Source: a virus
Lineage: Duplodnaviria > Heunggongvirae > Uroviricota > Caudoviricetes
IMG/VR virus record: IMGVR_UViG_2526164603_000014
DNA length: 16,087 nucleotides
Direction: 5' to 3' (one strand)
The position numbers were made by a program. Each line of letters opens with the position of its first letter. Position 1 is the first letter of the stretch. Positions 12,401-15,400 of this stretch are shown one piece after another.

Positions 12401-15400
12401 TGTAATTAATCTTTTTCTTCCGGCACCAGTCCAGTAATGTTATTCCCGTTTCGGCATGTTCGCGTCGGAATGCCTGCTCCAGCTTTTTCCAGTCCAGCTT
12501 TGCCATGTCACGTTCTGACGTCCTGTGTTAAAAACTGATGCATAATGACCGCTGTGATTTTTCAGATTTCACACAGCAGCACCATATTTGATCGATATTT
12601 GCACAATGCGGTTGTTTTATCCGGTTTCTTCCACCACCGCACCGGACAGGCGGCTTCGCGGGAAATCGCTCCCATCTCGTGAAAAATGAGAAAACCCGGT
12701 GTGCATCGTTTTTGATTATCCCCGCACACTCCCGCAGAGAAGTTCCCCGTCAGGGCTGTGGACATAGTTAATCCGGGAATACAATGACGATTCATCGCAC
12801 CTGACATACATTAATAAATATTAACAATATGAAATTTCAACTCATTGTTTAGGGTTTGTTTAATTTTCTACACATACGATTCTGCGAACTTCAAAAAGCA
12901 TCGGGAATAACACCATGAAAAAAATGCTACTCGCTACTGCGCTGGCCCTGCTTATTACAGGATGTGCTCAACAGACGTTTACTGTTCAAAACAAACAGAC
13001 AGCAGTAGCACCAAAGGAAACCATCACCCATCATTTCTTCGTTTCTGGAATTGGGCAGAAGAAAACTGTCGATGCAGCCAAAATTTGTGGCGGCACAGAA
13101 AATGTTGTTAAAACAGAAACCCAGCAAACATTCGTAAATGGATTGCTCGGTTTTATTACTTTAGGCATTTATACTCCGCTGGAAGCGCGGGTGTATTGCT
13201 CACAATAATTGCATGAGTTGCCCATCGATATGGGCAACTCTATCTGCACTGCTCATTAATATACTTCTGGGTTCCTTCCAGTTGTTTTTGCATAGTGATC
13301 AGCCTCTCTCTGAGGATGAAATAATCCCGTTCAGCGGTGTCTGCCAGTCGGGGGCCGGTTGCATTATCCACGCCGGAGGTGCCGGTGGCTTCACGCACGG
13401 TACCGGAGCAGGTGGCGTTGATCCGCAGGCGCTTACGACCAGCGGCAACATCAGCACGCAGAGTTTCATTTTCAGCTCTCGCATCGGCTAACTCCCTCGA
13501 GTATTTTGCATCGAGCGCAGCAACATCACGCTGGCGCACCTGCATGTCAGTAATGGTGGCATTCGCCTGTTCCAGCTCTCTGGCTTTTTTATCGCGCTGC
13601 GCTTTGTAGGTGAGCGCGTTGTCACGGTAATGGTTTGTTGCCAGCCACAGCGCACCATAGCCAACCGCCAGGACAATAATCACCACACACAGAACACGGT
13701 TCATCTCTCTTTCACCCCACCAGTCCCGATAACGTCAGGACTCGCCAGGCGGTGGAAAAGAAAATGGCAACCAGCATGACTAAAAATGAAATGCCGACAA
13801 GTACACAGAGGCTCTTCACCAGCGTTATGAGTTTATCTGATATCATTAGCCACCCCATCAATCCGCCTTTGTTATTTTCCCTTTGCCTGTATCAGCCAGG
13901 ACAAAATCAATCAGCATATTCGCTTCATTTACCAGCGTACGGATTTTTGATACATGCGCGGCTTTAACCTGTTTCCACTCATTCAGCCCGGTAGCAAACA
14001 CACTGGCAATGTTTTTATCCCGTTTCATGTCAGCACAAGCCTGGTTGAGTTCTTCCATCACGCTCATTTTACGGGGATTAACGACAAAACCCTTCGTCCA
14101 GTACTCGTAAAGAACATCGTCGCACTCTTCCTGATACCGGATGACCTTATCGCGGATTTCGGGTTTTACTTTGTTGGGATTAATGGTTTGTAGCCAGCCG
14201 GCAAGTTTTCGAAGTGGCATGGACACCATATTGCGTTGTTTCCCATCCTCAGCAACCATAACGATTTCCGTTATAGTTGACGCAAAACGCTGTCTTAACT
14301 TAGCCAACTGTGATTGCCAGGCCAGCCCCATCCCCGCAACGACAGGTTTCATGGGAACGTATGGTTCGCCATTATGGTTAACTACATAAAGAGAGTTGCC
14401 GTGAAACGGCACGGCCATCATATTCATCGGTTATTTCCTTTTAGTGATGAACCTTGTCTCACAGGAATCCAGCCCACAGAAAGGCACCGACAGCCAAACC
14501 GGTATCCTCAAGGGTCATCCTGAAAGGTTCTGTGTTGTGAGATGCGCGTGAGATGCGCAGAAATGACAAAGGCATCATTACGGTGCCTGAGTGTTAAACA
14601 ACTGTTTTGACTTTATTCACTTACATTTTGCCAATTTGCAGGATTTCGTGTTATCCGTCCATGTAAGCAAACCTCATTTTTCAGCAAAATATTCTTCTTA
14701 TCTGTCGATTCCCCAGCACGCCAGCGCGCTCTCCTGGTCACGACGGGATACCTGACCGTAACAGTTGTTTGAACGAATACGGCAGTCTCTGCCACCGTCC
14801 TTAATCCACCAGCGAATAGCTTCGCAGGCACCTTTTCGATCACCTGCATTAATTCGTCTGTAAAACGTCGACGGGAAACACTTACCGGGACCAATGTTGT
14901 ACGGACAGAATGACGCGATCCCCGCTTTCTGGGGTTCGGTCAGCGGCACTTTGTATGTTTTTCTCCACCCATGCCAGCGCCTTATCACGCTCAATGGCGT
15001 TAACCCGGTCGCATTTTTCCTTCGACAGCTTCATGCCAGGAATAACAGGCTTACCATCCACCCGGGTGGCTCCACGGCAGATGGTCCAGATACCCGCACC
15101 ATCACGGTATGCTGTGGTGTGGTTACCTTCCTTTTCATCCAGAAACTGGTCGAGGATTTCAGGCGCAGAAGCACCTGCGGCAATCAGCGCCAGAACGGCA
15201 GCCGATAAACCATAGCGGAGTTTCCTGCTCATCAGCTTACTCTCCCCGTGCCGCCTTACGCCGGTCTTCTTTAATCTTGAAATACAGGTTCGTCAGATAT
15301 GTCAGCAGCCCAAACAGCAGACTCCCCAGCACGCCTATTGCCGCCCACTGAGACGGGGAAACCCTGTCCAGCAACTGCAGGAACCAGTAGCCCGTTCCCA

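What the first reader, a model, noticed from the sequence alone, without database searches (positions are those of the whole stretch)
13712..13846. Unannotated 44-aa hydrophobic ORF between the antirepressor-like gene and Rz
A tightly packed ORF (12 nt after the upstream stop, 8 nt before the Rz start) encodes a peptide that is mostly one TM helix. Small membrane peptides in lysis cassettes can modulate holin timing. It is below the track's size cutoff and may be spurious.
Basis: inference. Interest (0 to 1): 0.45.

Follow-up and report, generated by a model that had tools for sequence, protein, structure and literature searches.

The report
Conserved membrane micro-protein in phage lysis cassette
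The small ORF is a real, conserved gene for a 44-48-residue single-helix membrane peptide, wedged between the antirepressor-like gene and the spanin gene Rz of a Shiga-toxin-type prophage; other records already annotate it as a hypothetical protein, and its probable role as an accessory in host-cell lysis has never been tested.

Summary
The ORF exists as described, on the minus strand (ATG 13846, stop 13712-13714). The frame is open further upstream, to an ATG at 13858 that overlaps the ant stop codon (TGATG). That gives the 48-aa form that RefSeq annotates as WP_000539792.1.

It is not spurious. Across 18 distinct alleles there are 53 variable sites, no indels, no stops and a fixed stop position. 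dN/dS is about 0.4 in this frame and about 1 in the other sense frames, similar to the neighbouring Rz.

It belongs to PHROG 4906 (unknown function). The family is larger than the Stx-phage form: mostly 43-44-aa 'MSDKL...' peptides, named in Escherichia, Shigella, Citrobacter and Cronobacter entries. Members always lie downstream of the endolysin, in four different lysis-cassette layouts, and are translationally chained to their neighbours.

The peptide is one hydrophobic helix. It is already listed in two EHEC studies, as EDL933_1392 and as the ribosome-profiling candidate XECs191 (weak signal, uninduced cells).

No homology to holins, spanins, toxins or defence proteins was found, and no functional study was located. 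My best guess is an accessory late/lysis inner-membrane micro-protein that acts by helix packing.

The entity is already known and its function is open. Interest is modest.

The parts
13712..13858 (-). Small ORF in its 48-aa form (MGWLMISDK...GLVG). The ATG at 13858-13856 overlaps the ant stop codon (TGATG). This is identical to RefSeq WP_000539792.1, EDL933_1392 and XECs191, and it matches PHROG 4906.
13712..13846 (-). This corresponds to the start of the 43-44-aa 'MSDKL' majority of the family. It is preceded by the SD-like sequence UGGGGUGGC.
13858..14427 (-). Antirepressor-like gene ant (P22_AR_N + ORF11CD3 domains, 189 aa). Its last codons carry the SD-like AAAGGCGGA that precedes the small ORF.
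13705..13723 (-). G-rich end of the small ORF plus the spacer (CTGGTGGGGTGAAAGAGAG). It supplies the Shine-Dalgarno sequence for Rz. Equivalent G-rich ends precede the next gene in every cassette type examined.
13240..13704 (-). Rz, the i-spanin (Phage_lysis, 154 aa).
13299..13484 (-). Rz1, the o-spanin lipoprotein, embedded in Rz in the +1 frame (61 aa, lipobox VVSAC).
14698..15232 (-). R, an R21-type lysozyme (SAR endolysin). In this window it is frameshifted by one extra A at about position 14954.
15237..15452 (-). S, an S21-type (class II) holin of 71 aa.

Best explanation
The ORF is a genuine protein-coding gene of the phage late (lysis) transcript. It encodes a 44-48-residue single-pass inner-membrane micro-protein of PHROG family 4906.

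It has no predicted promoter of its own. Its ribosome-binding site lies in the last codons of the upstream gene, and its start overlaps the ant stop. Its own G-rich last codons form the ribosome-binding site of the next gene (Rz here). It is therefore inferred to be made together with the lysis proteins, late in lytic growth.

Inferred mechanism: the peptide inserts in the inner membrane, probably N-in, and acts through packing of its conserved helix faces. The partner could be itself or another membrane component of the lysis pathway (holin, i-spanin, or the membrane and its proton-motive force in general). In this role it would be a non-essential accessory that tunes lysis.

My estimates for each layer:
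- Real gene and membrane peptide: about 0.9.
- Expressed only with late genes: about 0.7.
- Lysis accessory: about 0.4.

The direction of any effect on timing is unknown.
For: Coding and conservation
- 18 distinct alleles of the core have 53 variable sites, no indel, no stop, and an identical stop position.
- Pooled dN/dS is 0.39 in this frame against 0.86 and 1.10 in the other sense frames.
- In a second pooled set it is 0.45, against 0.48 for Rz and 0.19 for ant in the same loci.
- Deeper pairs, including the 43-44-aa forms, give 0.17-0.47 with Fisher p down to 1.5e-5.

Family
- PHROG 4906 matches at E = 1e-27.
- A profile search found 261 clusters, mostly of 43-49 aa. Named entries come from E. 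coli, E. albertii, Shigella, Citrobacter and Cronobacter.
- The exact 48-aa sequence occurs on at least 1000 contigs.

Context
- The gene always lies downstream of the endolysin, in four layouts.
- Three of them share an S21 holin and lysozyme, and differ in what follows: (1) P22_AR_N ant, smORF, Rz; (2) a 70-aa TM protein, smORF, Rz; (3) a PF03374 ANT gene, smORF, Rz.
- The fourth is holin_8, holin_3_7, GH108 endolysin, a 60-aa TM protein, smORF, then a lipoprotein.
- The upstream neighbour varies while the smORF stays, so it is an independent module.

Expression signals
- There are SD-like sites of -6.8 to -8.2 kcal/mol before the starts.
- G-rich 3' ends lie 4-12 nt before the next ATG in every layout.
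- No sigma-70-like promoter is predicted on the minus strand nearby.

Peptide
- It is a single helix.
- Variable positions fall in i+3/i+4 series (11-15-18-22 and 27-31-34/35-38-42). Permutation of power at 85-115 degrees gives p = 0.006 for the mean.
- S2, F20 and L36 are invariant. C13, G17, S19, W33, G40 and G43 are each at least 86% conserved.

Published data
- Ribosome footprints and RNA were reported in Sakai for XECs191: LB RNA RPKM 30, RIBO-seq RPKM 12.6, coverage 0.55, classified 'real' and 'inner membrane'. Source: PMC5597208, supplementary tables.
Against: - No experiment on function was found in the literature searches.
- The ribosome-profiling signal is weak. It comes from uninduced cultures, and the sequence is present in several copies per O157 genome, so read mapping is ambiguous.
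- There is no homology to any holin, spanin, toxin or defence family.
- The gene is absent from perfectly functional lysis cassettes. In K-12 Qin and DLP12, R abuts Rz. From general knowledge, lambda and phage 21 also lack it. It cannot therefore be essential for lysis.
- It decays in prophage remnants: frameshifted in ML35 and on an IncF plasmid.
- Close allele pairs show dN/dS of about 1 or more, but on few substitutions.
- Its alleles reassort freely with different Rz N-termini, so there is no sign of allele-specific co-evolution with Rz.
- Part of the C-terminal conservation may reflect its role as the SD for the next gene.
- The helical periodicity is only moderately significant: p = 0.09 for the maximum statistic.
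Confidence: 0.45

Rival explanations
1. The ORF is a real membrane micro-protein, but an accessory ('moron'-like) function unrelated to lysis. Examples would be exclusion of superinfecting phage, modulation of a host membrane protein, or a Hok/TisB-like membrane-depolarising toxin. On this reading it merely sits in a recombination hot spot of the late region.
For: - The interval between R and Rz, and the region after Rz, are filled with variable cargo: ant, ANT, a methyltransferase, Rha/KilA-N, ParDE, PerC and HNH genes.
- A mosaic junction lies inside or next to the ORF.
- The gene occurs with unrelated holin/endolysin types, so it is not tied to one lysis chemistry.
- It is dispensable for lysis cassettes in general.
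Against: - No predicted promoter of its own and no terminator precedes it.
- It is translationally chained between late genes in every layout, so it should not be expressed in lysogens as classical morons are.
- Its position is always endolysin-distal within the lysis cassette, and never elsewhere in the loci sampled.
- It decays together with the cassette in remnants rather than being selectively kept.
- There is no match to PADLOC or to Pfam toxin families.
Confidence: 0.3
2. This is a coupling ORF. What matters is that ribosomes translate across the gap and terminate next to the Rz start, re-creating the R-Rz translational coupling that the ant insertion broke. On this reading the peptide itself has no function.
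For: - In cassettes without insertions, R overlaps Rz by 4 nt.
- Here the ant stop overlaps the ORF start.
- The ORF's G-rich end lies 4-12 nt before the next ATG in all layouts.
Against: - Selection acts on the amino-acid sequence. dN/dS is about 0.4, against about 1 in the other sense frames, and replacements are conservative and hydrophobic.
- Length is fixed at 43-49 aa, and residues are conserved across genera.
- The ORF is retained when the next gene is a methyltransferase or a lipoprotein rather than Rz.
Confidence: 0.12
3. No gene lies on this strand. Either the ORF is a chance open frame, or the real gene is the antisense ORF 13752-13967(+).
For: - A 44-48-codon open frame has about a 10% chance expectation.
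- The antisense frame that shares wobble positions is also open in the eight alleles listed, and shows dN/dS of 0.48.
Against: - The low antisense dN/dS is the expected mirror effect of shared third positions. Codons with T at position 2 give antisense codons that start with A, which cannot be stops (reasoning).
- The antisense ORF would run against the late operon and through ant.
- The only plus-strand promoter-like site found is far away, at 12801-12828.
- The sense ORF has fixed boundaries, SD sites, a PHROG family and published ribosome footprints.
Confidence: 0.03

Closest known systems
PHROG 4906 / RefSeq WP_000539792.1 / EDL933_1392 / XECs191 (Hucker et al. 2017, PMC5597208)
   Same: This is the same protein. 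The sequence is identical and the HMM match is E = 1e-27.
   Different: Nothing differs. All of these entries carry 'hypothetical / unknown function'.
Antiholins made from dual starts (lambda S107, phage 21 S21-71). This comparison rests on general knowledge.
   Same: They are small membrane proteins of the lysis cassette that tune timing by TM-TM contact. The Stx-type allele also has two in-frame ATGs four codons apart.
   Different: Antiholins are isoforms of the holin itself, with 2-3 TMDs, and differ from it by an added positive charge. The peptide here is a separate gene with one TMD and no similarity to S. Its N-terminal extension (GWL or EWWL) adds no positive charge.
Accessory lysis regulators encoded as separate genes (P2 LysA, P1 LydB, T4 RI, Mu gp25 'releasin'; PMC9239132 for Mu, the others from general knowledge)
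   Same: They are non-essential genes inside or beside the lysis cassette, and several are membrane-associated. This is the kind of role proposed here.
   Different: All are larger and have soluble domains or several TMDs. No sequence relationship to them was detected in the Pfam or PHROG searches. Direct comparison with each of them was not run.
Bacterial small inner-membrane regulators (AcrZ, MgrB, MgtS, CydX and similar; general knowledge)
   Same: They share the size (30-50 aa), a single TM helix and a very short soluble tail, and they act by binding a larger membrane protein. The conserved and variable helix faces seen here fit that mode.
   Different: Those are chromosomal, separately regulated genes with known partners. 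This one is phage-borne, sits in the late operon, and has no known partner.
Type I toxins and Hok/Gef-like peptides (general knowledge)
   Same: They are small hydrophobic prophage-borne peptides that could depolarise the membrane. Depolarisation would trigger any holin or SAR endolysin.
   Different: There is no Pfam Hok or other toxin match, no predicted promoter of its own and no Rfam antisense RNA. The peptide also lacks the periplasmic Cys-containing tail of Hok.

Membership tests
PHROG 4906 (unknown function) | Significant match to the family HMM over nearly its full length | tested here: met
   E = 1.3e-27 with residues 1-44 aligned to profile positions 6-49 of 49. The 43/44-aa relatives also match, at E = 1e-13 to 4e-19.
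Holins (Pfam Phage_holin_* families) | Match to a holin family model | tested here: not met
   No Pfam or NCBIfam hit at E <= 0.1 to 1. hhalign against the cassette's own S21 holin gives probability 0.1%.
Holins (generic definition) | One or more TMDs plus a charged, hydrophilic C-terminal cytoplasmic tail | tested here: not met
   There is one TMD. The C-terminal 10 residues ([10 protein letters not shown] or MALTSAGLVG) carry at most one charge.
Dual-start antiholin | N-terminally extended isoform of the holin gene that carries an extra positive charge | tested here: not met
   It is a separate gene, unrelated to S. The extension MGWL/MEWWL has no Lys or Arg.
i-spanin (Rz-like) | N-terminal TMD followed by a periplasmic coiled-coil domain long enough to reach the o-spanin | tested here: not met
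   Only about 10 residues follow the TMD. There is no Phage_lysis match. hhalign against Rz gives probability 0.7%.
o-spanin / lipoprotein | Lipobox [LVI][ASTVI][GAS]C after a signal sequence | tested here: not met
   The only Cys (C18 of the 48-aa form) is preceded by K-S-L or K-I-L, which is not a lipobox (read from the sequences).
Type I toxin-antitoxin (Hok/Gef and others) | Toxin family match, own promoter, and a cis-encoded antisense RNA | tested here: not met
   No Pfam match, no predicted promoter on either strand nearby and no Rfam hit. Toxicity itself was not testable.
Known anti-phage defence proteins (PADLOC) | Match to a PADLOC model | tested here: not met
   No hit at E <= 0.1 for the 48-aa form, the 43-aa form or ant.
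Translated small protein (functional smORF) | Ribosome occupancy with a defined initiation site under the relevant (induced) condition | tested here: inconclusive
   Published RIBO-seq in uninduced Sakai gives RPKM 12.6 and coverage 0.55. No start-site mapping or post-induction data were found.

The most novel reading that the evidence does not exclude
PHROG 4906 peptides could be a previously unrecognised class of lysis factor. On this reading they are holin-type-independent single-helix membrane peptides, made in step with the spanin genes, that set or sharpen the time of envelope breakdown. They might do this by lowering the proton-motive force or by packing against holin or i-spanin helices. 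In Stx- and LT-II-encoding prophages they would then influence when and how much toxin is released. The layout 'TM protein, smORF, small lipoprotein' sits exactly where spanins normally lie, in prophages with no recognisable Rz (Citrobacter L122, E. coli L113). This leaves open that the module takes part in the outer-membrane step.
Probability: 0.25. Interest if true: 0.6.

Novelty: already known. Interest (0 to 1): 0.3.

Why it matters
Shiga toxin has no secretion signal, and its release depends on phage-mediated lysis (general knowledge). This peptide is encoded in the lysis cassette of 933W, VT2-Sakai, phi24B and at least 260 other Stx phage records. It is also found in about 600-1200 of 5426 complete E. 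coli genomes, yet no functional study of it was found.

If it alters lysis timing, it would be a new and easily testable knob on toxin release and burst size. It would also add to the short list of accessory lysis regulators.

If it has no phenotype, it is one more conserved phage micro-protein of unknown role.

For annotation, the result is practical. The gene should be called in Stx-phage records that currently omit it, and the start codon needs experimental mapping.

Tried and rejected
- **Family searches.** Pfam, NCBIfam and PADLOC gave nothing for the peptide.
- **Paralogy tests.** hhalign against the cassette's holin S, against Rz, and against the small TM protein that precedes it in other cassettes showed no relationship, so it is not a duplicated TMD of a lysis protein.
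- **Species representatives.** A scan of one genome per species found a single hit, on a 328-bp contig labelled Xanthomonas pisi. It is 93% identical to the E. coli peptide and is probably contamination. The family is otherwise confined to enterobacterial prophages.
- **E. coli K-12.** The Qin and DLP12 cassettes lack the gene, so K-12 small-protein studies do not bear on it.
- **Own promoter, terminator or RNA family.** None was found.
- **Tie to ant.** Rejected: the upstream neighbour can be P22_AR_N ant, PF03374 ANT, or either of two unrelated small TM proteins.
- **Tie to the small lipoprotein phrog_7528.** Rejected: phiP27 has the lipoprotein without the smORF.
- **Co-variation with Rz.** Alleles of the peptide's C-terminal half do not track the Rz N-terminal TMD; they reassort freely.
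- **Plasmid hits.** The 23 plasmid records that matched were not all examined. Several listed records are far larger than ordinary plasmids (up to 1.4 Mb), and the one hit opened is a frameshifted, IS-flanked prophage fragment on an IncF plasmid.
- **Literature.** Searches for functional work on the gene, or on small ORFs between R and Rz, found only the two EHEC 'omics listings.
- **Signal-peptide-like precursor.** I considered cleavage after the conserved S-x-A and before W33, releasing an 11-residue peptide. I did not pursue it, because the hydrophobic core (about 20-22 residues) is anchor-length rather than signal-peptide length.
- **Fold search.** Not run, because a single helix would give meaningless matches.
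Full report
**Setting.** The right-hand part of the window is the late region of a 933W/Sakai-type lambdoid prophage, read on the minus strand. 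It contains, in order:
- DUF1378 and DUF826 small proteins.
- S21-type holin S (15237-15452).
- R21-type lysozyme R (14698-15232).
- An antirepressor-like gene with P22_AR_N and ORF11CD3 domains (13858-14427).
- The small ORF.
- Rz (13240-13704) with Rz1 embedded (13299-13484).
- bor on the other strand (12915-13208).
- Terminase genes.

The 3.6-kb stretch matches the chromosomes of four O157:H7 strains (Z1830-Z1833) over its whole length apart from one extra base.

**Observation.** The ATG lies 12 nt from the last base of the ant stop, and the stop lies 8 nt from the Rz ATG. The peptide is one long hydrophobic helix. The Kyte-Doolittle window peaks at 2.82 and GRAVY is 1.67. AlphaFold2 predicts a helix over residues 2-43 with pLDDT 88. 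The frame continues upstream to an ATG at 13858 that shares its A with the ant stop (TGATG), and to a TTG at 13861. An open frame of this length has roughly a 10% chance expectation, so the sequence alone proves nothing.

**Is it coding?** I collected about 100 related loci from IMG/VR, RefSeq E. coli genomes, phage records and assemblies.
- The 135-nt core exists in 18 distinct alleles with 53 variable sites. There are no indels and no stops, and the stop position is invariant even though five different sequences follow it.
- Pooled Nei-Gojobori dN/dS is 0.39 in the ORF frame, against 0.86 and 1.10 in the other two sense frames.
- The one antisense frame with a low value (0.48) is the wobble-sharing frame, where a mirror effect is expected. 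It is also stop-free for compositional reasons.
- In eight loci with all three genes, pooled omega is 0.19 for ant, 0.45 for the small ORF and 0.48 for Rz.
- Comparisons that include the more distant 43-44-aa relatives give omega 0.17-0.47, with dS of 0.6-1.25 and Fisher p down to 1.5e-5. Closely related pairs have too few changes to say anything, and some exceed 1.

The ORF is under purifying selection comparable to that on a proven lysis gene next door.

**Start codon.**
- Both ATGs have SD-like sequences upstream (-7.1 and -6.8 kcal/mol).
- A common variant has a 3-nt insertion (MEWWLM...).
- Three loci carry a TAG at codon 3 of that variant, leaving only the inner ATG.
- In the wider family most members start 'MSDKL...', equivalent to residue 6 of the 48-aa form. 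They have a strong, well-spaced SD (UAAGGGGUA, -8.2 kcal/mol) in the last codons of the upstream gene.

The 4-5-residue extension looks like a by-product of the junction with ant. Whether one start or both are used cannot be decided computationally.

**Family and distribution.**
- The peptide hits PHROG 4906 (unknown function) at E = 1e-27. It hits nothing in Pfam, NCBIfam or PADLOC.
- A first protein search found only E. coli entries.
- Profile searches found 261 clusters. Named entries come from E. coli, E. albertii, Shigella, Citrobacter portucalensis and Cronobacter.
- The exact sequence occurs on at least 1000 contigs and is 'hypothetical/uncharacterized' everywhere.
- DNA matches occur in 264 phage records, nearly all Stx phages. 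They occur in 1225 of 5426 complete E. coli genomes, 618 of them at 80% coverage or more.
- RefSeq annotates it as WP_000539792.1. The original 933W, phi24B and Min27 records do not annotate it.
- It is absent from K-12, where R overlaps Rz directly in Qin and DLP12.

**Published evidence.**
- The same sequence is EDL933_1392 in a supplementary table of Neuhaus et al. 2016 (PMC4765031), predicted to be inner membrane.
- It is XECs191 among the 465 ribosome-profiling candidates of Hucker et al. 2017 (PMC5597208). In LB the values are RNA RPKM 30.0, RIBO-seq RPKM 12.6, RCV 0.43 and coverage 0.55. Values are lower in BHI and under stress. It was classified 'real'.
- This is weak support. The cultures were uninduced and the sequence is multi-copy in O157.
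- I found no functional study.

**Genomic context.** Four layouts were seen.
1. S21 holin, lysozyme, P22_AR_N ant, smORF, Rz/Rz1. This is the layout of the window. In one variant an N6/N4 methyltransferase is inserted between the smORF and Rz.
2. S21 holin, DUF1327, lysozyme, a 70-aa (or 48-aa) C-terminal-TM protein, smORF, Rz.
3. S21 holin, lysozyme, a PF03374 ANT protein, smORF, Rz.
4. holin_8, holin_3_7, a soluble GH108 endolysin, a 60-aa TM protein, smORF, a 60-aa lipoprotein, and no recognisable Rz. This occurs in E. coli (including LT-II toxin prophages) and in Citrobacter.

In one phage the order is R, smORF, a 38-aa TM protein, Rz.

The common thread is a position distal to the endolysin inside the lysis cassette. 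Usually the ORF lies directly before the spanin genes, or where they would normally be. The upstream partner is interchangeable, so the peptide is not an appendage of ant. The holin/endolysin chemistry is also interchangeable (pinholin with SAR lysozyme, or canonical holin with soluble endolysin). That argues against a holin-specific antiholin role.

**Expression logic.**
- No sigma-70-like promoter or Rfam element lies near the ORF on its strand.
- In every layout its SD lies in the end of the preceding gene.
- Its own G-rich end (GGTGGGGTGA, GGTGGATAG or CTGGAGTGA) lies 4-12 nt before the next ATG.

It is therefore a link in a translationally coupled chain within the late transcript, and should be made only during lytic growth, roughly in step with Rz. 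That last point is inference.

**The peptide.**
- Seventy-six distinct cores were aligned. S2, F20 and L36 are invariant. C13, G17, S19, S21, A26, S30, W33, G40 and G43 are 85% conserved or more.
- Variable positions form i+3/i+4 series (11-15-18-22 and 27-31-34/35-38-42). These fall on opposite faces of the helix in its two halves.
- Spectral power at 85-115 degrees exceeds column shuffles: p = 0.006 for the mean and p = 0.09 for the maximum. The signal is suggestive rather than strong.
- Small-xxx-small spacings (G17/S21, A26/S30, A35/A39/G43) and the lysines at positions 4 and 10 fit an N-in single-pass helix that packs against other helices.
- It is unrelated to the cassette's holin, to the Rz TMD, and to the neighbouring small TM protein.

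**Interpretation.**
- *Shown:* this is a conserved gene encoding a membrane-type helix, embedded in and coupled to the lysis cassette, and belonging to an annotated but uncharacterised family.
- *Inferred:* expression is late-only, the peptide lies in the inner membrane, and it acts by helix packing.
- *Best guess (about 0.4):* a non-essential accessory that tunes lysis. Because it accompanies unrelated holins, it would act on something common to them, such as the membrane's energised state, or on the spanin step.
- *Rivals:*
  - A late-region accessory unrelated to lysis (about 0.3).
  - A coupling-only ORF (about 0.12). The amino-acid constraint, and its retention before genes other than Rz, argue against this.
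  - A spurious or antisense gene (about 0.03).

**Novelty.** The entity is already known: RefSeq, PHROGs, the EDL933 re-annotation and a published ribosome-profiling list all include it. This analysis adds several points:
- The core start position.
- The breadth of the family.
- Its constant place in four cassette architectures.
- The coupling chain.
- The constraint estimates.

Function remains open and is cheaply testable.

Noticed in passing
window 14698-15232 (-), extra base at about 14954: The SAR-endolysin gene R has one extra A (GAAAAACAT[A]CAAAGTG) relative to O157:H7 strain Z1830. This splits it into two ORFs (14882-15232 and 14698-14994). It is either a lysis-defective prophage copy or a sequencing error.
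   Followed up: partly
window 15842-16021 (-) and 15529-15975 (-): Two more small late-operon proteins of unknown function lie upstream of the holin. One is a 59-aa single-TM DUF1378 protein. The other is a DUF826 protein (named from the equivalent genes in L104).
   Followed up: no
L113 3801-4322; L122 3796-4322; L105-L108: In holin_8/holin_3_7/GH108 cassettes the smORF is flanked by a 60-aa C-terminal-TM protein (phrog_1115) and a 60-aa lipoprotein (phrog_7528, lipobox LVGC). This trio sits where spanin genes normally lie, and no Pfam Rz/Rz1 is called in the cassette. It could be a non-canonical outer-membrane-step module, or the spanins may simply be missing.
   Followed up: partly
L127 (phage phiP27) 2495-2683: The Stx2e phage phiP27 carries the same small lipoprotein after its endolysin, but has no smORF. 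Its record annotates no spanin in that stretch.
   Followed up: partly
L105-L108 1241-2359: LT-II-type enterotoxin genes (Enterotoxin_a + LT-IIB) lie between the Q antiterminator and a lysis cassette that also carries the smORF. This mirrors the stx position in Stx phages.
   Followed up: no
L100-L102 (e.g. L101 858-1793): An N6/N4 DNA methyltransferase gene is inserted precisely between the smORF and Rz. It starts 5 nt after the smORF stop.
   Followed up: no
L104 vs L103 (ant / smORF / Rz): A mosaic recombination junction falls inside the smORF. The ant genes are identical (dS 0), while the smORF C-terminal half (dS 0.36) and Rz (dS 0.51) come from another lineage.
   Followed up: partly
L003 2501-2634 (E. 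coli ML35); L121 3501-3631 (IncF plasmid NZ_CP144927.1): Frameshifted copies of the smORF sit in decayed prophage remnants next to Rz/Rz1 and PerC. On the plasmid the fragment is flanked by IS3/IS30 elements.
   Followed up: partly
L085 (NZ_JPLE01000251.1, 328 bp): This is the only hit among species-representative genomes. It is a 328-bp contig labelled Xanthomonas pisi whose encoded peptide is 93% identical to the E. coli family, so it is probably E. coli/Stx-phage contamination of that assembly.
   Followed up: no
window 13752-13967 (+): A 71-codon antisense ORF overlaps the smORF and the 3' end of ant. Its openness is explained by composition: sense codons with T at position 2 give antisense codons that start with A. 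Old records such as AP005153 annotate several such antisense ORFs in this region.
   Followed up: yes
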